Sequence record: PZ674595.1
DNA length: 64,000 nt
From: a phage
Direction: 5' to 3' (one strand)
Under the pieces are notes generated by a model that was not told where the DNA came from, made no database searches, and worked only from the letters and a program-made list of their open reading frames with translations. Both the position numbers and the translations under genes were made by a program. This document shows positions 15,137 through 57,059 of this stretch, piece by piece (position 1 is the first letter of the stretch; each line of letters starts with the position of its first letter).

Positions 15137-15184
15137 TAGCACCAACCACTGCGGTGAGTAGTCTGCTCACCGCATTCGTATCCA

Positions 15185-15625
15185 GCTCATTATCCACTGT
15201 AGTCAGTAACAAAACCTTCCTACATATCTGCTAACCACTGTAGCGAGTAGACAGCCTTTCATTCGCATCAAACAACCACTATGGTGAGTATTGGAGTGAG
15301 ATGTCCAGCGGGTATCCACTATGGTGAGTAAGCCTTTGCTGTTTTCAGTGGATATCCACTCGCCACAGTGGATACGCTCAAAGATGAGGGCGACAACAAC
15401 CACTATAGACAGTAAATTTTCCAAGATACCCAGTGACCACTAACCTCGCAGCCCTTGTTTCATCAGTGTTAGTGATCACTAACATTTAATTCAGTATTTG
15501 CATTCTACTGCCTACAGTGGTTATCAACAGATAACGATACTCACTATAGTGGATAGCGAATTACAGATATAAGTAAGGCTCACTACAGTGGATAGTGAGC
15601 CTTACTACTAACTACAGTGGTTGGG
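15185..15625. repeat. iteron array downstream of repA (P1 incA-like copy-control repeats)
   Basis: About ten copies of CCACTATAGTGG-type motifs (e.g. ATCCACTATGGTGAGTA, TCACTATAGTGGATAG, CTACAGTGGTT) in both orientations. Confidence 0.7.
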
Positions 15626-16689: not shown

Positions 16690-17345
16690 TCTCTTGTTAT
16701 TCGACGGCTTTGGTGGCCTTTGCTGATTACAGTGGATAGTAGCACTCATCACAGCGGTTATCCTACCGTCTATAGTGGTTTTTCTCCTCTCTATAGTGGT
16801 TGCTTTGCTCCCTATAGTGGATTATTCGCTCTCTATAGTGGATATCGATCATGTCTGAAGGCAGATGGCACAACGGTTTGAGGTGGGCGGGGATCTTATT
16901 GGGTCTTTATGGGTCTCTTTGGTTCTCTTTGTGATCTGAATTACTGGATCGGGCCTGTGGATAAAAATCAGAGGATTTCAAGAACAGGTAACTCTACTCT
17001 TCTGTGGATATTTAAGGACATAAGAATCATGACTAAGAGTAGAGTTTAAAATATATCTATGTATATCAGTATGTTAATGAAGAATTAAGTCATTAAGTTA
17101 TCCATAAAAGACAATGTGCTCTACTCTCTACAGTGGATATATACAGCTCTCCAGAGTGGTTGTTTTACTCTTCATAGCGGTTATTCAGCTCTCTACAGAG
17201 GTTTCTTTGCTCTCCATAGTGGATGGCAACACCCTTTCAGACCAGTAACCGCAACGGCTAGAGGCGATCGGGGATCTCTTTGGATCTTCTATTTGATCTT
17301 ACTTGGGATCTCTTATTTGGATCTATCCAGTGGATAACTGGGATA
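16690..17345. other. origin of plasmid replication (oriV): two iteron arrays, DnaA boxes, GATC cluster, AT-rich stretch
   Basis: 21-22-bp direct repeats CTCTATAGTGG at 16740-16860 and 17116-17235; DnaA box TGTGGATAA at 16956-16964 and near-match at 17003-17011; six GATC within 17266-17323 as TGGATCT repeats; AT-rich 17040-17110; overlapping track ORFs 16639-16881 and 17116-17337 judged non-coding. Confidence 0.7.
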
Positions 17346-48839: not shown

Positions 48840-49700
48840 TGTTTATACAAATAAGAAAACAACTAAATAACAGATCAACGAAACGTCAACGCTTTCACCC
48901 GATTTGGTCTAAAAAATTGACGTTTTCACACATCACTTCTTATACCCGTAACTCTACGCAGCAGACAGCGCCACAGCGTCCAATTTTCACCACAGACGAC
49001 CCAACACACTACCAACAAAAACACACGCTCAAAATCGCTCCCGTTGCGTTACACAACCATATAAACAACTTATTTTCAGGCATAACAAAACAACTAAATA
49101 ACACACATGCCATTTCCAAAAACAACCAACCTCTTTATGGCAGGCTACCGAAAAGACCCACCTCTTCTCCCCAGTCTACCGAAAAGACCCACCTCTTCTC
49201 CCCAGGCTACCGGACAACCAACCTAACTTTCACAGGCAATCCGAAAACATTCATACGCGCGATACCCACGACACGCCATTCCCCAAACAGCGAAGAAACA
49301 CCAGAATCACTGAAACCCCAACGAAGCCTGTAACCGCAAGGATTCTCTCAATCCCAAAAGACACGAAACAGAACAATCACGGGAAACGCCATTACCCAAT
49401 ACACGAATAACTACAAAAGCCTTTCACACACTCCAGACAAACAACTCAAACACAACAACGAAAGGAATCGCCCACCTGCCATTACTCCATACACGGAGAA
49501 GAACAATCACCAAAACGACGAGAACACCCCATAGAAGAACCACCGCAAAACGAACGAAACCACATACACCGACAGAGAAAACAACACACCCAATTCACCA
49601 ACAGAAATAGTCGCCGTATAGAACATTCTGGAAGGAGTGAGCATTAACGCCTATAGAGAGGTTGAGACAGATAAAACACAACATGTATAGCGAAGAAGCC
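48840..49700. repeat. strand-asymmetric C/A-rich, G-poor tract with tandem 29-bp repeats
   Basis: Plus strand almost devoid of G over ~860 bp; perfect tandem copies of CTACCGAAAAGACCCACCTCTTCTCCCCA at 49155-49183 and 49186-49214 plus a degenerate third; track ORF 48839-49333 judged a composition artefact. Confidence 0.6.
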
Positions 49701-52637: not shown

Positions 52638-52826
52638 TTATTAAGGCCACCAGCGTTGGTGGTCTTAAATAACTTTTAATAACCGAAGGTTAGTTTGAAA
52701 CCTGGCTATCAACTTCCAGAACCTTTCTTGTGTATTCAGCCTGTATTAACTTCTTTTATGCCTTATCTACACTGCGATAATTACACCAACAAGAAAACAA
52801 CATGTTTACGCAGTGAGGATATGCTC

Positions 52827-53108
52827 ATGACTGATTTCACCATTACCCCTAAAGCACAAAATGTATTCCTTGAATCATGGCTGGACTTGCCGGAAACAGA
52901 ACAGCAAGAAATGGATCATGTGGATTATGACGAGCAGGTAAGCACGCGATTCTTCCACTTTGAGGGCTGCGTTTACGACATTGCCGACTTCATGCGAGAT
53001 GACCGCTTCCCTGAATGGCACGCAAGCTATCCACTAAACGCCTTTGCCATGCTGATGATCCGTGTGGATGATTCAGGGGATACCATCGACATCGGTCTGC
53101 TCCACTAA
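52827..53108 (+). CDS. hypothetical small acidic protein
   Basis: ATG 52827 seven nt after GAGGA; 20 nt after motif GAAAACAACATGTTTA; track ORF starts at 52695. Confidence 0.4.
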   Translation: MTDFTITPKAQNVFLESWLDLPETEQQEMDHVDYDEQVSTRFFHFEGCVYDIADFMRDDRFPEWHASYPLNAFAMLMIRVDDSGDTIDIGLLH

Positions 53109-53159
53109 AGATTAAGGCCACCAATGCTGGTGGCCTTAAATGACCATCCTGTTTCCCGC

Positions 53160-53240
53160 AGGCTAAAAACACCAACCTCTTACCTCCAGGCAACCGACAA
53201 ACCCACCTGTTCCCGTCCGGCTACCGCAACTTTCCACTTT
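53160..53240. repeat. three ~30-bp C-rich direct repeats related to the 49155-49245 repeats
   Basis: GCAGGCTAAAAACACCAACCTCTTACCTC / CAGGCAACCGACAAACCCACCTGTTCCCG / CGGCTACCGCAACTTTCCAC. Confidence 0.5.
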
Positions 53241-53312
53241 GACGCCTTATTCGTACAACGATAATTAACACCAACAAGAAAACAATTTGTTATTTACGAT
53301 AAGGAATTAATC

Positions 53313-53795
53313 ATGAATTTTATCGCTACTGTAAACGCACCCGCACATGGCAATATCGCTGTAACGTTCTCTGACATTGAAAAACGAGTACTTGGTGCAT
53401 GGCGCGACAATGAGACGGTAGAACTGTCAGCACAAGAAAAATGCATTATTGCACGCGACATCATTGGCAATCGTCGTTACTCGCGGGTATTTGAGAAAGC
53501 GTATGTGGTAAATTCTGGGTTCGGAACGTTCGTCTTTCCGGTGCGCTCAGGGCGATTCTGCCAGTCCAAGCTGATTGAGTTCGCTACGCAGATTTCTGTC
53601 TGGATTAAAACTCAATCGTCGTTCAAATTTTCCGACGATGAAGCAGTATCGCAGGGGATGCGGATCGCCAACAATGCGATTAAATGCAAAAACATTACGT
53701 ATACCGCTGGCGTTGACACATGGAAACTGTTTTGCGCTAACTTTATGCTGAATGTATACGCAAGCAACCGCATCCACATCCTTGATGGCGTGTAA
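53313..53795 (+). CDS. hypothetical protein
   Basis: 160-aa ORF; RBS AAGGAA; promoter motif GAAAACAATTTGTTA 21 nt upstream. Confidence 0.4.
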   Translation: MNFIATVNAPAHGNIAVTFSDIEKRVLGAWRDNETVELSAQEKCIIARDIIGNRRYSRVFEKAYVVNSGFGTFVFPVRSGRFCQSKLIEFATQISVWIKTQSSFKFSDDEAVSQGMRIANNAIKCKNITYTAGVDTWKLFCANFMLNVYASNRIHILDGV

Positions 53796-53835
53796 CTGAG
53801 AAGAGGGCCAGAAACGGCCCTTTCTCTATAGCCAC

Positions 53836-53930
53836 CAGCTGCCGCAGGGAAATTTTCAGAAACGGCGAGGAACGTATTCATGAGCCGACGGGAAACGGCC
53901 AGGATTTTTTCGGGAAACGGCTGCATTCGC
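53836..53930. repeat. second array of CRGGGAAAMGGCYG-type direct repeats
   Basis: CAGGGAAATTTTCAG, CAGAAACGGCGAGG, CGGGAAACGGCCAGG, CGGGAAACGGCTGC. Confidence 0.5.
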
Positions 53931-54382
53931 CTTTATGTAGAAAAAACATCGGGAAGCTGGTGGAATCCAACCAGCGGTTGTCGGACAGGCGAGCGGGGAA
54001 AATTATGATGACTTTCGTCGCCTGAGACATCCAGATTTCTTTCGTAGCGTAATCACATACGTGATTAAGTGGTGTGATTATGTGAAAAATCACGCGCACA
54101 TAATACGCGAGCGGATACAGAACAACACAAAATGCCGATCCGCGCCGACAAATAAACGCGGATCACATAGCAAGAATAAAAGCCAATGATTAGCCATACG
54201 TTATAGCGCAATATAACGCATTTTAAGCGCGTTAATGTGCTAAGTAATGGGTATGTACTGGTAAGGATATAAAAGCGCGTCTATGGCGTTATTTTGGCGC
54301 TTATTTTTATGTTGTTGGAGTGAGTTAAAGACAATAAAAAACGCGCCAATGATGGCGCGCTATGGTGGGAGTATTGGAAACG

Positions 54383-54418
54383 AAAAAAGCGCCCATAGTG
54401 GGCGCTCGATTTTATTTG
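54383..54418. terminator. bidirectional terminator hairpin (also one of a pair of 24-bp direct repeats)
   Basis: AAAAAAGCGCCCATAGTGGGCGCTCGATTTTATTTG; near-identical hairpin at 54658-54685. Confidence 0.65.
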
Positions 54419-54642
54419 TGTAAACTGATTTTAAATCCCATTTCTACAAACGCTTTTAACATTAAAAATATATCAGCGTCGTTGATTCCAATATCCGAAC
54501 GCTCAATATCATTTAATAAATCAATTTTACGCGTTGTTTCATCGATAAACTCGACTGAGCGCCCAGCGTAACCAGCGATCCCAGCGATGCGATTAACAAA
54601 ATATTCATTGCGCACGTTAACGCCAGCGATAAGAACAAACAT
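54412..54642 (-). CDS. hypothetical small protein bracketed by 24-bp direct-repeat hairpins
   Basis: 76-aa ORF; RBS AAGGAG 7 nt before ATG; terminator immediately after stop. Confidence 0.45.
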   Translation of the reverse strand: MFVLIAGVNVRNEYFVNRIAGIAGYAGRSVEFIDETTRKIDLLNDIERSDIGINDADIFLMLKAFVEMGFKISLHK

Positions 54643-54689
54643 GATAAAGCTCCTTTAAAGCGCCCATAGTGGGCGCTTGATTCCATTAA

Positions 54690-55340
54690 TTACGCTTTAA
54701 AAGCATCAGCCAGATAGTTATAAAAATCATTTTTAACGAAGCGATATTGCTGAGTACCAGCTTTCGCGCTCCCAGCTCCTTTGACTTTTTCAACAAGTCC
54801 GAGACGTTCGCAAAGATTGATCAACTGGTTGGCTTGAGTATAGCCAGCGTCCAATTTAATTTCGTTGGCTTTTTTCGCTTCATTCATTAAATCGAAAACA
54901 GCGCCATTAGTGAACGTGTCGATCTCGTCGTTAATCATATCGATTAAAGCAAATACACGAGATCCTGACATATCAGCGACGGAATAAACGCATTTACCAG
55001 ATTTAATTGATTTGACCAGATAAACCAGTTTTTCCAGAGAGTAACTATTAGCCATTGCATCACGGAAAAATACTTCTGGCGCTTGTTTGCTTGCTTTGAT
55101 CGCATAGTAGAAAACAGAGCATAATTTTTCGTCTTCCACAGCGTTTACGACGTTGTTGATGAAGTAAGCAAGTTTAGTGGTCGCAGCTTGCATATTTGCT
55201 TTGTCTGCTTTAGTGTGCGTACCATTTTTATAATGTTCGTTATATGTTTGAGTTGCCAGATCTGCTTTTTCGCGCAGTTCATCGGATACAATGGAAGCAG
55301 CTTCAACGATGGATTTTTTAGAAATGATAACGTTAGCCAT
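54690..55340 (-). CDS. hypothetical protein (AT-rich block)
   Basis: ATG at 55340 (MANVIISKK...) behind AAGGA; track ORF starts at 55415. Confidence 0.45.
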   Translation of the reverse strand: MANVIISKKSIVEAASIVSDELREKADLATQTYNEHYKNGTHTKADKANMQAATTKLAYFINNVVNAVEDEKLCSVFYYAIKASKQAPEVFFRDAMANSYSLEKLVYLVKSIKSGKCVYSVADMSGSRVFALIDMINDEIDTFTNGAVFDLMNEAKKANEIKLDAGYTQANQLINLCERLGLVEKVKGAGSAKAGTQQYRFVKNDFYNYLADAFKA

Positions 55341-55634
55341 GATAATATCCTTACGAAAAATTAAAATGAATTTATTTTTTACTGTCGTTAGCCAGCTCGC
55401 TTTCGACGAGTTCAATTATCGATACGTGAAAAAAGATTGCAAGTGTTTTTTTTAAATTTTTTGCAGGGGTGAAAGTCCTAGAAATAAAAGAGAGAGCGTC
55501 GAAGGTGTTCCCTAAATAAATAATCAATTCAGGCTTTTAACCTTATATATTTATACAGAGTGGCATTGAAAGAGTTTTAAATGAATGGCATGTAAAATAA
55601 TAACCGGACTTAGCCGGTTATTACCCTTATAGAT

Positions 55635-56156
55635 TTAAAATGGAAGGATTCGTTCAACCCAATCGAAGAAAACAAGTATTTTTCTGCCGTCTTCTAACTT
55701 AAGAGTGACCTGACAAGCATCAACGCCTCTTGACACCCCTTCTATTTCACGACCGTCTGCCATGTAGACCCTTATAGATTGGTCGTTTTGATAAGCCTTG
55801 CGACATATCGCAAAAAAGTCACGGCGTGATGGCTGATTGTCAACATAGTCTGGATGTATTGTTAGCCTACCTTTGAACTCGCGAGCAATGCCATCGATTA
55901 CACCTGATTCAATTGTGCTAATGCGCTCAAGTGGGAGTCTTATACGATTTTCTTTATCATATGGAAGCGGGCATAAATCTAGCTTATTGCGGGAAGGCAT
56001 TGTCCCCTGAACGTACATGCAAAACACCTGACCGTCTTCAAGCGTGACTCTTACAGGAATGTTGTTCTTCCGCCAGAACATAAGTATGTTTTCAGCATGT
56101 TCGTAGTCTCGCGGCCAGACTTCAGCCGGTATGCCGTAGGTGATGTCTTTAACCAT
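55635..56156 (-). CDS. hypothetical protein with internal sequence duplication (AT-rich block)
   Basis: 173 aa; two similar segments (VRVTLEDGQVFCMYVQG and IRVYMADGREIEG...VTLKLEDGRKILVFF). Confidence 0.45.
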   Translation of the reverse strand: MVKDITYGIPAEVWPRDYEHAENILMFWRKNNIPVRVTLEDGQVFCMYVQGTMPSRNKLDLCPLPYDKENRIRLPLERISTIESGVIDGIAREFKGRLTIHPDYVDNQPSRRDFFAICRKAYQNDQSIRVYMADGREIEGVSRGVDACQVTLKLEDGRKILVFFDWVERILPF

Positions 56157-56258
56157 AGTCTACCTTTTTAAGTCTTTTTTGGTCATTATATACATCTCTA
56201 TGATGCGTAGACAGACTAACCGTACATTCCACCAAAAATTGATTATGGAATAAGTTTC

Positions 56259-57059
56259 ATGAAGAATGGGGTGAATAAAAAATACTCATTAGCATTGTTA
56301 ATAGCGGCTTTACTATTAACAGGTTGTGATTCTGATGAAGAGCGAGCCATAAATCTAGTTGAAAAGGATATTCGCTCTACACTGCTAGATCCTGATGCTG
56401 GTCGGTTCACGAATATGCGAGCTATTCAGTTAGGTGAAAATAGCTATTCATATATGGTATGTGGAGAGGTGAATGGCAAAAACGTCTTGAACGCCTATAC
56501 AGGTGCGACCGCATTCAATGCACACATCTTTGATGTTCGTGAACGTAACCCGATTGTATTCGTTACAATGGATAAAAGTACCAACTCGGCAAGAGAACGA
56601 TTACGTTTTGAACGCCAAAATCTAGCATGTAAAGAAAATGGTGTGAAACTTTATCTGGAAAACGAATCTAAAATCAGGAAGGAAAAAGAGAAAATAGATG
56701 ATTTAAAAAAAACTCCATTAGGTCAGGCTGTGTTTGATGCTGCAAGTGATTCGACATATGTGAGTAGAGAGTTGGGCGAATCGAGAGGTGTTAGTGAAGT
56801 GTATGCAAGAGAAAATGATAAATATGCTCTTGTTAGCGTCACCAATTATGACACTCCTGACTTTTACAAATTTAGGAAAAAAGACAACGGTGAATTAGAA
56901 CCTGTTAGAGGGCTGTCTTACACCGGCTATCCATTCGCAGTTGCGCTGTGCCATTCTGAACAAACAGATTATGACAAATGCATAACAGAAGAAGAAATCA
57001 GGTTGCTTCGAGACGAAAAGAATAAGCTCGACGATTTTGTCGTACCACCAGAAGAATAA
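56259..57059 (+). CDS. lipoprotein of unknown function (AT-rich block)
   Basis: Signal peptide with lipobox LLTGC; 266 aa; Lys/Glu-rich middle. Confidence 0.5.
   Translation: MKNGVNKKYSLALLIAALLLTGCDSDEERAINLVEKDIRSTLLDPDAGRFTNMRAIQLGENSYSYMVCGEVNGKNVLNAYTGATAFNAHIFDVRERNPIVFVTMDKSTNSARERLRFERQNLACKENGVKLYLENESKIRKEKEKIDDLKKTPLGQAVFDAASDSTYVSRELGESRGVSEVYARENDKYALVSVTNYDTPDFYKFRKKDNGELEPVRGLSYTGYPFAVALCHSEQTDYDKCITEEEIRLLRDEKNKLDDFVVPPEE

What the first reader, a model, noticed from the sequence alone, without database searches (positions are those of the whole stretch)
54383..54685. 76-aa gene bracketed by near-identical 24-bp hairpin direct repeats
Seen in sequence: AGCGCCCATAGTGGGCGCTCGATT at 54388-54411 and AGCGCCCATAGTGGGCGCTTGATT at 54659-54682 flank the minus-strand gene 54412-54642 (RBS AAGGAG). 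Each repeat is itself a GC-rich hairpin in an AT-rich background. Inference: the repeats serve as terminators insulating a single-gene cassette and could also mediate its gain or loss by recombination, a moron-like arrangement.
Basis: partly seen in the sequence, partly recalled or inferred. Interest (0 to 1): 0.4.

Follow-up and report, generated by a model that had tools for sequence, protein, structure and literature searches.

The report
Repeated terminator hairpins flank swappable gene
Two copies of one terminator hairpin bracket a small gene in an SSU5/pHCM2/pMT1-type phage-plasmid, and relatives show this hairpin marks a slot where small genes are absent, single, swapped or stacked, which is a clean but not unprecedented case of repeat-bounded gene shuffling in phages.

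Summary
A 19-nt perfect palindrome, AGCGCCCA-TAG-TGGGCGCT, occurs exactly twice in the window, at 54388-54406 and 54659-54677. The repeat extends to 26 nt with one mismatch. It brackets a real 76-aa gene (A) with an AAGGAG ribosome-binding site.

The window is an E. coli SSU5-type phage-plasmid. In 88 non-identical relatives the hairpin always sits 7-12 nt after the stop of a conserved 216-aa gene. The content behind it varies:
- no gene: 15 loci (10 with a single hairpin plus T-tract, 5 with tandem gene-less hairpins)
- gene A: 20
- an unrelated 67-aa gene B: 30
- B+A: 20
- two diverged A alleles, each followed by a hairpin: 2
- one unclassified.

Empty and occupied sites differ exactly hairpin-to-hairpin on about 96%-identical backbones.

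Only the last hairpin carries a T-tract. The internal copy runs straight into the ribosome-binding site and no promoter precedes A. So A is an operon-tail add-on, not a self-contained moron.

Best reading: a duplicated operon terminator whose copies act as joints for homology-driven gain, loss and exchange. This resembles PeSL shuffling in T4-type phages but lacks the promoter.

A second, unrelated hairpin pair 1.5 kb away behaves the same way. The functions of A and B are unknown. Interest is moderate.

The parts
54690..55340 (-). Conserved 216-aa gene (PHROG 1513, function unknown). Its stop codon lies 7-12 nt before the first hairpin in every relative, so it anchors the slot.
   Evidence: all-helical model with no fold match
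54657..54682 (-). Upstream (internal) copy of the repeat. The 19-nt palindrome is at 54659-54677. On the gene strand it is followed by TTTAAAGGAG, so there is no T-tract. Inferred to be a read-through or attenuating intercistronic hairpin.
   Evidence: (not called terminator-like on either strand)
54650..54655 (-). Ribosome-binding site AAGGAG of gene A, 5 nt after the hairpin stem and 7 nt before the ATG. It is part of the TTTAAAGGAGCTTTA motif that is repeated before gene B and gene A in B+A relatives.
54412..54642 (-). Gene A, 76 aa (PHROG 1585, function unknown). Predicted small beta-alpha-beta-beta-alpha-beta protein. This is the variable cargo of the slot.
54383..54411 (-). Downstream (terminal) copy of the repeat. 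The palindrome is at 54388-54406, with the T-tract (TTTTTT on the gene strand) ending at 54383. Intrinsic-terminator-like on the minus strand and also on the plus strand (tail CGATTTTATT), so possibly bidirectional.
54334..54361 (-). Third hairpin (AGCGCGCCATCATTGGCGCGTT plus TTTTTT), a back-up terminator conserved in relatives. Its loop is found in both orientations among relatives. It is the right-hand breakpoint of the mosaic patch in L005.
55415..55442 (-). Only sigma-70-like consensus match upstream of the 216-aa gene (TTGCAA-16-GATAAT). Candidate promoter of the 216-aa gene / gene A transcript. This is a consensus match only.

Best explanation
The 19-nt hairpin is the intrinsic terminator of the short minus-strand operon that ends with the conserved 216-aa gene.

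In the simplest relatives the arrangement is: gene, one hairpin, T-tract, then a second back-up terminator. In the window, a promoterless unit [ribosome-binding site + gene A + hairpin] sits directly behind the hairpin stem, so the hairpin is present twice. The upstream copy has lost its T-tract to the ribosome-binding site. It now acts at most as a pause/attenuator and a 3'-protecting stem between the two cistrons. The downstream copy, plus hairpin 3, ends the transcript.

At the DNA level, the identical copies are 26 nt here and about 40 nt where the ribosome-binding region is also shared. They serve as joints for homology-dependent events, either unequal crossing-over between sister or co-resident phage-plasmid copies or hairpin-assisted replication slippage. 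These events delete the unit back to one hairpin, stack units, exchange one cargo for another, or import a patch from another lineage.

Shown: the sequence anatomy and the natural end-states. Inferred: transcription behaviour, the recombination process and the enzymes involved.
For: - Exact duplicate with 0 expected by chance.
- The hairpin lies 7-12 nt after the stop of the 216-aa gene in 88 non-identical loci spanning 49-100% aa identity of that gene.
- Terminal copies always have a T-tract (5.97 T of 8, n=88). Copies followed by a gene do not (3.2, n=74). Copies followed by a short spacer do (6.33, n=9). The scan calls only the downstream copy and hairpin 3 terminator-like on the gene strand.
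- The states found are: no gene 15 (10 single hairpin, 5 tandem gene-less), A 20, B 30, B+A 20, A2-hairpin-A1 2, other 1.
- L090 (empty) is 90-100% identical per 40-nt window to L004 (B) and L007 (A2) on both sides, with the gap running hairpin to hairpin.
- 28 locus pairs have both 300-nt flanks at least 95% identical but different content.
- L005 is a Klebsiella backbone carrying an E. coli-type A patch whose ends fall at hairpin 1 and hairpin 3.
- A2-h-A1 arrays hold two alleles only 47% identical, each with its own 3' flank and hairpin.
- Tandem 44-bp hairpin+T-tract units occur in 2 or 3 copies in near-identical relatives.
- An unrelated hairpin pair in the same window (52641-52668 and 53112-53139) shows the same clean presence/absence. 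This argues for a generic homology mechanism.
- No promoter-like site lies between the 216-aa gene and A.
- The element encodes Mre11/Rad50-like, exonuclease and ligase functions.
Against: - The window's nearest structural variant (B+A) differs by a 226-bp indel bounded by an 11-15-nt repeat of the ribosome-binding region, not by the hairpins. The hairpins are therefore not the only joints.
- No empty site was found among the 30 best PLSDB matches to an artificial empty junction built from the window's own flanks, nor among the 30 best matches to the natural L090 junction. Loss on these backbones is rare or counter-selected.
- From general knowledge, 19-26 nt is at or below the length at which RecA-dependent recombination is efficient.
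- The stem is much more conserved than its flanks: major-allele frequency 0.89 against 0.62-0.67. Recombination alone does not obviously explain this.
- Termination, read-through and excision were not measured.
Confidence: 0.7

Rival explanations
1. The hairpin is a dedicated site for a structure- or sequence-specific recombinase (integron-like or HUH/Y1-like). Promoterless gene+hairpin cassettes would be moved by site-specific recombination rather than by general homology.
For: The architecture looks like a cassette array: co-oriented promoterless ORFs, each followed by the same palindrome, in arrays of 0, 1 or 2 units. The stem is conserved far above its flanks across clades whose adjacent gene is only 49% identical.
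Against: No recombinase lies within 12 kb. The element's only annotated integrase is about 58 kb away. The hairpin is a perfect 8-bp stem without the bulges or core sites of attC. The B indel uses a ribosome-binding-site repeat. An unrelated hairpin sequence 1.5 kb away behaves identically. One of the mosaic breakpoints lies at the different hairpin 3.
Confidence: 0.07
2. The exact hairpin sequence is kept because a protein recognises it, as a DNA palindrome or an RNA stem-loop. Candidates include the 216-aa protein or the neighbouring FljA-like RNA-binding repressor, acting to control termination, mRNA stability or translation of the downstream gene. The variable cargo would then be a side effect.
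For: Stem conservation is 0.89 against 0.62-0.67 for flanks, with no compensatory changes. The hairpin is specific to this locus. A Flag1_repress (FljA) family gene lies just upstream. The hairpin sits 5 nt from the ribosome-binding site.
Against: The loop is variable and occurs in both orientations, which is unusual for a sequence-specific RNA ligand. Variant stems (AGCGCCA-GAAA-TGGCGCT) occupy the same position in one clade. No fold or family evidence shows that the 216-aa protein binds nucleic acid. This idea can coexist with the main explanation.
Confidence: 0.12
3. All states descend from an ancestral multi-gene tail (such as B+A or A2+A1) by independent deletions. The hairpins are merely ordinary terminators that survived and play no part in the rearrangements.
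For: B is lost from B+A through a ribosome-binding-site repeat. B+A is common in E. coli (20 loci). A is never found upstream of B.
Against: This does not explain the hairpin-to-hairpin gaps, the E. coli-type patch in a Klebsiella backbone, the tandem gene-less hairpin units with copy-number variation, the A2-h-A1 arrays on B+A-like backbones, or the internal hairpin copy being sequence-identical to the terminal one.
Confidence: 0.08
4. The hairpin is a small dispersed mobile or repetitive element (REP- or MITE-like) that has landed on both sides of the gene.
For: Gene-less tandem copies exist.
Against: There are only two copies in 64 kb. In IMG/VR, all of the 94 hits that I inspected were at this one locus except L070. 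In metagenomes, 70 of the 80 loci held lie at this locus. The other 10 are single copies in unrelated sequence.
Confidence: 0.02

Closest known systems
PeSL (promoter-early stem-loop) cassettes of T4-type phages (Arbiol et al. 2010, PMC2839356; Comeau et al. 2014, PMC4122927)
   Same: Repeated intergenic regulatory motifs containing a terminator stem-loop flank small genes of unknown function. Close relatives differ by exactly the gene plus one repeat, leaving a single repeat. The repeats are proposed joints for homologous exchange that keeps the inserted gene expressed (compared).
   Different: PeSLs are about 100-bp composites with a strong sigma-70 promoter, and dozens of copies are spread through hyperplastic regions. 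Here the repeat is 19-26 nt, has no promoter, is confined to one locus, and the cargo depends on read-through from the upstream gene. The host element is a temperate siphovirus-like phage-plasmid. Mini-circles have not been looked for.
Morons of lambdoid and other temperate phages (own knowledge: Juhala/Hendrix definition: promoter + gene + terminator inserted between two genes that are adjacent in relatives)
   Same: An extra small gene sits between sequences that are adjacent in relatives and ends with a terminator.
   Different: No promoter of its own and no distinct base composition. The upstream hairpin lacks a T-tract, so the gene is not transcriptionally autonomous. The neighbouring 52669-53111 unit, which carries promoter/operator-like repeats, fits the moron definition better.
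Integron gene cassettes (promoterless ORF + attC hairpin; own knowledge)
   Same: Promoterless, co-oriented ORFs are each followed by a palindromic element. They form arrays of variable length expressed from upstream.
   Different: No IntI integrase nearby. The hairpin is a short perfect palindrome without attC features. The evidence points to general homology.
Intercistronic REP or stem-loop elements that set differential expression within operons (own knowledge, e.g. malE-malF)
   Same: A stable hairpin without a T-tract lies between two cistrons of one transcript, directly after the upstream stop codon.
   Different: Here the hairpin is a copy of the operon's own terminator. It is not a member of a dispersed family.

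Membership tests
PeSL | Repeat contains a sigma-70 consensus promoter | tested here: not met
   No promoter-like site on the minus strand in 54643-54689. The space is 47 nt and is filled by the hairpin and ribosome-binding site.
PeSL | Repeat contains a stable stem-loop acting as terminator or attenuator | tested here: inconclusive
   A stable hairpin is present and the terminal copy has terminator features. Activity was not measured.
PeSL | Close relatives differ by gene + one repeat, leaving a single repeat | tested here: met
   L090 against L004/L007, the Cronobacter clade, and the second hairpin pair against L181.
PeSL | Many copies clustered in hyperplastic regions of a T4-type genome; about 100 bp of conservation | tested here: not met
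   Two copies in 64 kb. The repeat is 26 nt. The element is an SSU5-type phage-plasmid.
PeSL | Excised mini-circles | not testable with these tools
   Needs PCR or deep sequencing of phage or lysogen DNA.
Moron | Own promoter | tested here: not met
Moron | Own terminator | tested here: met
   The downstream copy has stem + TTTTTT. This rests on sequence features only.
Moron | Lies between genes or sequences that are adjacent in relatives | tested here: met
Moron | Base composition distinct from neighbours | tested here: not met
   G+C is 0.38-0.41 across 54400-55000, the same as the flanks.
Integron cassette | attC site (imperfect 57-141-nt hairpin with conserved core sites and extrahelical bases) | tested here: not met
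   19-nt perfect palindrome AGCGCCCA-N3-TGGGCGCT.
Integron cassette | Adjacent IntI tyrosine recombinase and attI | tested here: not met
   No recombinase within 12 kb. The only annotated integrase is about 58 kb away in the identical plasmid record.
Intrinsic (Rho-independent) terminator | G+C-rich stem-loop immediately followed by a T-tract | tested here: met
   Met for the downstream copy 54383-54406 and for hairpin 3. Not met for the upstream copy 54659-54677.
REP/MITE-like dispersed repeat | Many copies at unrelated positions | tested here: not met
Any Rfam RNA family | Score at or above the family gathering threshold | tested here: not met
   The best match scored 27.1 bits against a gathering score of 56.4.

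The most novel reading that the evidence does not exclude
The exact 19-nt palindrome is a recognition site rather than just a terminator. A protein of the element or the host would bind or cut it, as a DNA cruciform/hairpin or an RNA stem-loop. The locus would then be an integrase-less cassette platform in which promoterless small genes are captured, stacked and exchanged at a defined hairpin across the SSU5/pHCM2/pMT1/pKpn phage-plasmids. This would explain why the stem is identical in clades whose neighbouring gene is only 49% identical.
Probability: 0.1. Interest if true: 0.75.

Novelty: new variant of a known kind. Interest (0 to 1): 0.4.

Why it matters
SSU5-type phage-plasmids are common in clinical E. 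coli, Klebsiella, Enterobacter, Salmonella Typhi (pHCM2) and Yersinia pestis (pMT1). About 800 PLSDB plasmids carry this locus.

The locus gives an unusually complete natural series: empty, A, B, B+A, A2-A1, and tandem empty units. The series shows at base-pair resolution how small accessory genes enter and leave such elements while staying expressed from a resident operon. It extends the idea of repeat-mediated modular shuffling, described for T4-type phages, to temperate phage-plasmids and to a minimal terminator-only repeat.

It also defines a natural permissive insertion site, and a simple PCR-testable assay for recombination at short palindromic repeats. What genes A and B do is unknown. 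Their mutual exchangeability at one slot suggests accessory roles, perhaps host- or competitor-directed, that are worth testing.

Tried and rejected
- **Rfam scan of 53500-55600.** Only sub-threshold noise.
- **Protein families.** Pfam, NCBIfam and PADLOC gave nothing for A, B (not run against Pfam) or the 216-aa protein. PHROG families exist but have no function. The PHROG label for B ('MIT family metal ion transporter') and the 'ABC transporter' product label seen in this gene neighbourhood are implausible for such small soluble proteins.
- **Artificial empty junction with the window's own flanks.** No one-piece match among the top 30 PLSDB hits. The same held for the L090-type junction. Only the Cronobacter-type junction is found intact.
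- **First classification script.** It mis-placed the stop codon and was redone (one search replaced). A crash on a truncated locus was also fixed (one search replaced).
- **L101 as a recombinant at the hairpin.** The downstream side is clear (about 100% against 62%). The upstream side is only 95% against 88-92%, so I treat this as weak support.
- **Source of the cassette.** I checked the IncX4 homologues of A (50% identity). They sit among small genes separated by hairpins, but by different, non-identical ones. They are not the source of the hairpin.
- **Possible remnant of gene B.** The idea that the 60-nt spacer in pHCM2/pMT1 is a remnant of B was noted but not tested.

Full report
**What the window is.** The 4 kb around the finding is 100% identical to several roughly 110-kb E. 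coli and E. albertii plasmids. It is 96.7% identical to pLF82 / phage Cyrano, and more distantly related to Klebsiella phage-plasmids and Salmonella phage SSU5. This is the SSU5 supergroup of phage-plasmids, which includes pHCM2 of S. Typhi and pMT1 of Y. pestis (Pfeifer et al. 2021, PMC7969092).

**The observation.** AGCGCCCATAGTGGGCGCT occurs exactly at 54388-54406 and 54659-54677 and nowhere else in the window within three mismatches. None was expected in shuffles. Including flanks, the repeat is 26 nt (54386-54411 and 54657-54682) with one mismatch. Each copy is an 8-bp G+C-rich stem with a 3-nt loop, set in DNA of 38-41% G+C. The ORF 54412-54642 (minus strand, 76 aa, here 'A') and its AAGGAG site are as described. 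A is a real gene family: PHROG 1585, E 3.7e-36, tblastn matches in 416 PLSDB records, and 50%-identical full-length homologues in IncX4 conjugative plasmids.

**Anatomy on the gene strand.** The order is:
- a FljA-like gene (55635-56156; Pfam Flag1_repress, E 5e-81);
- a 294-nt gap holding the only promoter-like match (55442-55415);
- a conserved 216-aa gene (54690-55340);
- 12 nt;
- hairpin copy 1, followed by TTTAAAGGAGCTTTATC-ATG;
- gene A;
- 5 nt;
- hairpin copy 2, followed by TTTTTTCG;
- 26 nt;
- a third, different hairpin (54361-54340) followed by TTTTTT.

On the gene strand, the terminator scan calls copy 2 and hairpin 3 but not copy 1. No promoter-like site lies between the 216-aa gene and A. 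By sequence, then, A is the last cistron of the 216-aa gene's transcript, and only the downstream copy is a terminator. The plus-strand reading of the downstream copy also has a T-rich tail, so it may serve the converging plus-strand genes as well.

**Relatives.** I collected loci in several ways:
- from PLSDB by flanking DNA;
- from IMG/VR by the 216-aa protein;
- from IMG/VR by the hairpin itself;
- from IMG/VR by two distant homologues of the 216-aa protein.

Of the loci held at that point, 145 encode a 216-aa homologue and 88 are non-identical. In all 88, a hairpin with the stem AGCGCCCA/TGGGCGCT follows the 216-aa gene. It normally starts 7-12 nt after the stop codon (49-100% aa identity). 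In a few loci a variant hairpin or a gene comes first.

What follows falls into discrete states:

| State | Number of loci |
|---|---|
| No gene (10 single hairpin + T-tract; 3 variant hairpin + canonical hairpin 44-45 nt downstream; 2 with two or three canonical copies 44 bp apart) | 15 |
| h-A-h, including the pHCM2/pMT1 allele A2 with a 60-nt spacer | 20 |
| h-B-h, where B is an unrelated 67-aa gene (PHROG 6145); includes 5 loci of a distant B-like gene carrying an extra terminal hairpin | 30 |
| h-B-A-h, with no hairpin between B and A | 20 |
| h-A2-h-A1-h | 2 |
| Unclassified | 1 |

In the 67 loci classified, the cargo ORFs were all found on the strand of the 216-aa gene. In PLSDB, A occurs in 416 records, B in 517, and the locus in about 796. 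The single-hairpin form is the rule in Cronobacter phage-plasmids, with 9 one-piece matches.

**T-tracts.** The T-tract rule is general. Terminal hairpins have 5.97 T in the next 8 nt (n=88). Hairpins followed by a gene have 3.2 (n=74) and run into a ribosome-binding site. Hairpins followed by a short spacer have 6.33 (n=9).

**Are the hairpins the joints?**
- L090 (empty) is 90-100% identical per 40-nt window to L004 (B) and L007 (A2) on both sides. The alignment gap runs from one hairpin to the other.
- L005 is a Klebsiella-type backbone (90-100% identical to L049). Its segment from hairpin 1 to hairpin 3 is E. coli-type: 82-100% identical to L002, against 30-43% to L049.
- The A2-h-A1 arrays (L026, L028, and PLSDB CP057560.1) sit on backbones closest to B+A elements. 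They hold two alleles only 47% identical, each with its own 3' flank and its own hairpin.
- Twenty-eight locus pairs have both 300-nt flanks at least 95% identical but different content.
- Near-identical relatives differ in the copy number of a gene-less 44-bp hairpin+T-tract unit, or in having one or two terminal hairpins.

The window's nearest structural variant tells a slightly different story. L001 (B+A) differs from the window by a clean 226-bp indel bounded by the direct repeat AAGGAGCTTTA (15 nt with one mismatch), which is the ribosome-binding region shared by B and A. It is not bounded by the hairpins. Short repeats in general are therefore used, and the hairpin is the longest and most conserved of them.

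**A second case in the same window.** TTAAGGCCACCA-N4-TGGTGGyCTTAA occurs at 52641-52668 and 53112-53139, each copy right after a TAA stop codon. Between the copies lie promoter/operator-like repeat motifs and a 93-aa gene. In NZ_CP107145.1 the flanks are 97-98% identical, and exactly one hairpin remains with nothing between. Two unrelated hairpin sequences behaving alike argues for a generic homology mechanism rather than a site-specific one.

**Conservation.** I used only loci retrieved independently of the hairpin (n=82). At the first position, 52 loci have the canonical hairpin and 8 have the whole palindrome in the opposite orientation (loop TAG instead of CTA). Nine have other loops, 6 have lost the outer pair, 6 have a variant (AAGCGCCA-GAAA-TGGCGCTT), and 1 has none. 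Major-allele frequency is 0.89 in the stems, against 0.67 in the 60 nt upstream, 0.62 in the spacer and 0.58 in the loop. The stem is thus an island of conservation without compensatory changes, and the loop is free and flips. Hairpin 3 shows the same loop flips. I read the flips as traces of DNA-level events at palindromes (template switching or cruciform processing), but that is inference.

**Locus specificity.** The hairpin is specific to this locus. In IMG/VR, all the hits I inspected were at this locus except L070. In metagenomes, 70 of the 80 loci held are at this locus. The other ten are single copies in unrelated sequence.

**Enzymes.** No recombinase lies within 12 kb, and the only annotated integrase is about 58 kb away. 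The element encodes a metallophosphoesterase + AAA ATPase pair annotated for double-strand-break repair (Mre11/Rad50- or SbcCD-like), a 5'-3' and a 3'-5' exonuclease, a ligase and its own replicase. Whether any of these acts at the hairpins is unknown.

**Proteins.** A, B and the 216-aa protein match no Pfam, NCBIfam or PADLOC family (B was not run against Pfam). The model of A has modest confidence and a small beta-alpha-beta-beta-alpha-beta fold with no convincing structural neighbour. The 216-aa protein is predicted all-helical with no match. Their functions remain unknown.

**Comparison with known systems.** The closest described system is the PeSL of T4-type phages. These are repeated promoter + stem-loop motifs that flank ORFans, where close relatives differ by gene + one repeat, with proposed excision to mini-circles (PMC2839356, PMC4122927). 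The present locus works like that, but it is not a PeSL. It has no promoter, the repeat is 19-26 nt, it occupies one locus, and it sits in a different kind of phage. It is not a moron in the strict sense, because it has no promoter and no compositional difference. It is not an integron cassette either, because it lacks attC features and an IntI integrase. The two papers on SSU5-type elements that I checked do not mention hairpins, terminators or palindromes.

**Verdict.** The feature is a duplicated operon terminator bounding a variable single-gene slot, with strong comparative evidence for gain, loss, exchange and stacking at the repeat. It is a new variant of a known kind and is moderately interesting.

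Noticed in passing
window 52641-52668 and 53112-53139 (unit 52669-53111, gene 52827-53108 +): A second, unrelated 28-nt hairpin (TTAAGGCCACCA-N4-TGGTGGyCTTAA, loops flipped) is duplicated around a 93-aa gene with promoter/operator-like repeats. The relative NZ_CP107145.1 has one hairpin and lacks exactly the 471-bp unit.
   Followed up: yes
window 54340-54361; loci L001, L004, L006, L021, L027 and others: Hairpin loops occur in both orientations among close relatives (CTA/TAG in the main hairpin; ATCATT/AATGAT in hairpin 3). Whole small palindromes are inverted in place while the stems stay identical.
   Followed up: partly
window 13584, 25315, 35548, 36267, 47436, 50643, 51128, 52781, 53276, 63277 (about 35 nt each): A dispersed family of intergenic motifs centred on the palindrome AGAAAACAAnnTGTTT(A/T)A, often about 50 nt upstream of a start codon. 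A companion 48-nt motif (TTTTCTGCCTT...GAAAAT) lies just before it. These look like repeated operator/promoter cassettes.
   Followed up: no
window 49120-49212 and 53138-53226: Two sets of three tandem 28-31-nt repeats (AAAAGACCCACCTCTT...CAGGCTACCG), 4 kb apart. The second set lies immediately after the second hairpin pair. Possibly protein-binding arrays.
   Followed up: no
window 15141-15598 and 16722-17229: Clusters of 19-21-nt direct repeats (CTATAGTGG / CACTATAGTGGATAG core) with 21-nt spacing, iteron-like. By coordinate transfer they lie 0.8-2.9 kb beyond the 5' end of repA in the identical plasmid record.
   Followed up: no
window 53800-54385: A roughly 590-bp stretch with several further G+C-rich hairpins (54093-54109, 54136-54165, 54277-54301), between the converging 160-aa gene and gene A. 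It overlaps one small annotated CDS (53878-54030). Relatives carry TTTTAGCGCG tandem repeats here (L090).
   Followed up: no
L163 1100-1140 and 1785-1822 (IncX4 plasmid p35K_like): The 50%-identical homologue of gene A sits in a run of small genes. Two of these are preceded by the same roughly 35-nt motif CACCAAAGCCGCyCAGCGGCAGGAGTT (hairpin + ribosome-binding site). This is another repeated expression module around small plasmid genes.
   Followed up: partly
window 55635-56156: A FljA-family (repressor of phase-1 flagellin) protein is encoded just upstream of the operon. It also has a weak Hfq-like match. Its role in a phage-plasmid is unexplored here.
   Followed up: no
L008 (JAEWTL010000044.1) and protein P0175: This enterobacterial phage-plasmid locus appears in assemblies labelled 'Bacillota bacterium' MAG and 'Finegoldia magna' MAG. 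Binning contamination is the likely cause.
   Followed up: no
L180 1688-7679 and L183 31040-33431 (NZ_CP104844.1, identical to the window over 53000-57000): The matching plasmid record carries chromosomal-type apbC and metG next to an IS2, and an ISEcp1-blaCTX-M segment. I did not check whether these are also in the window.
   Followed up: no
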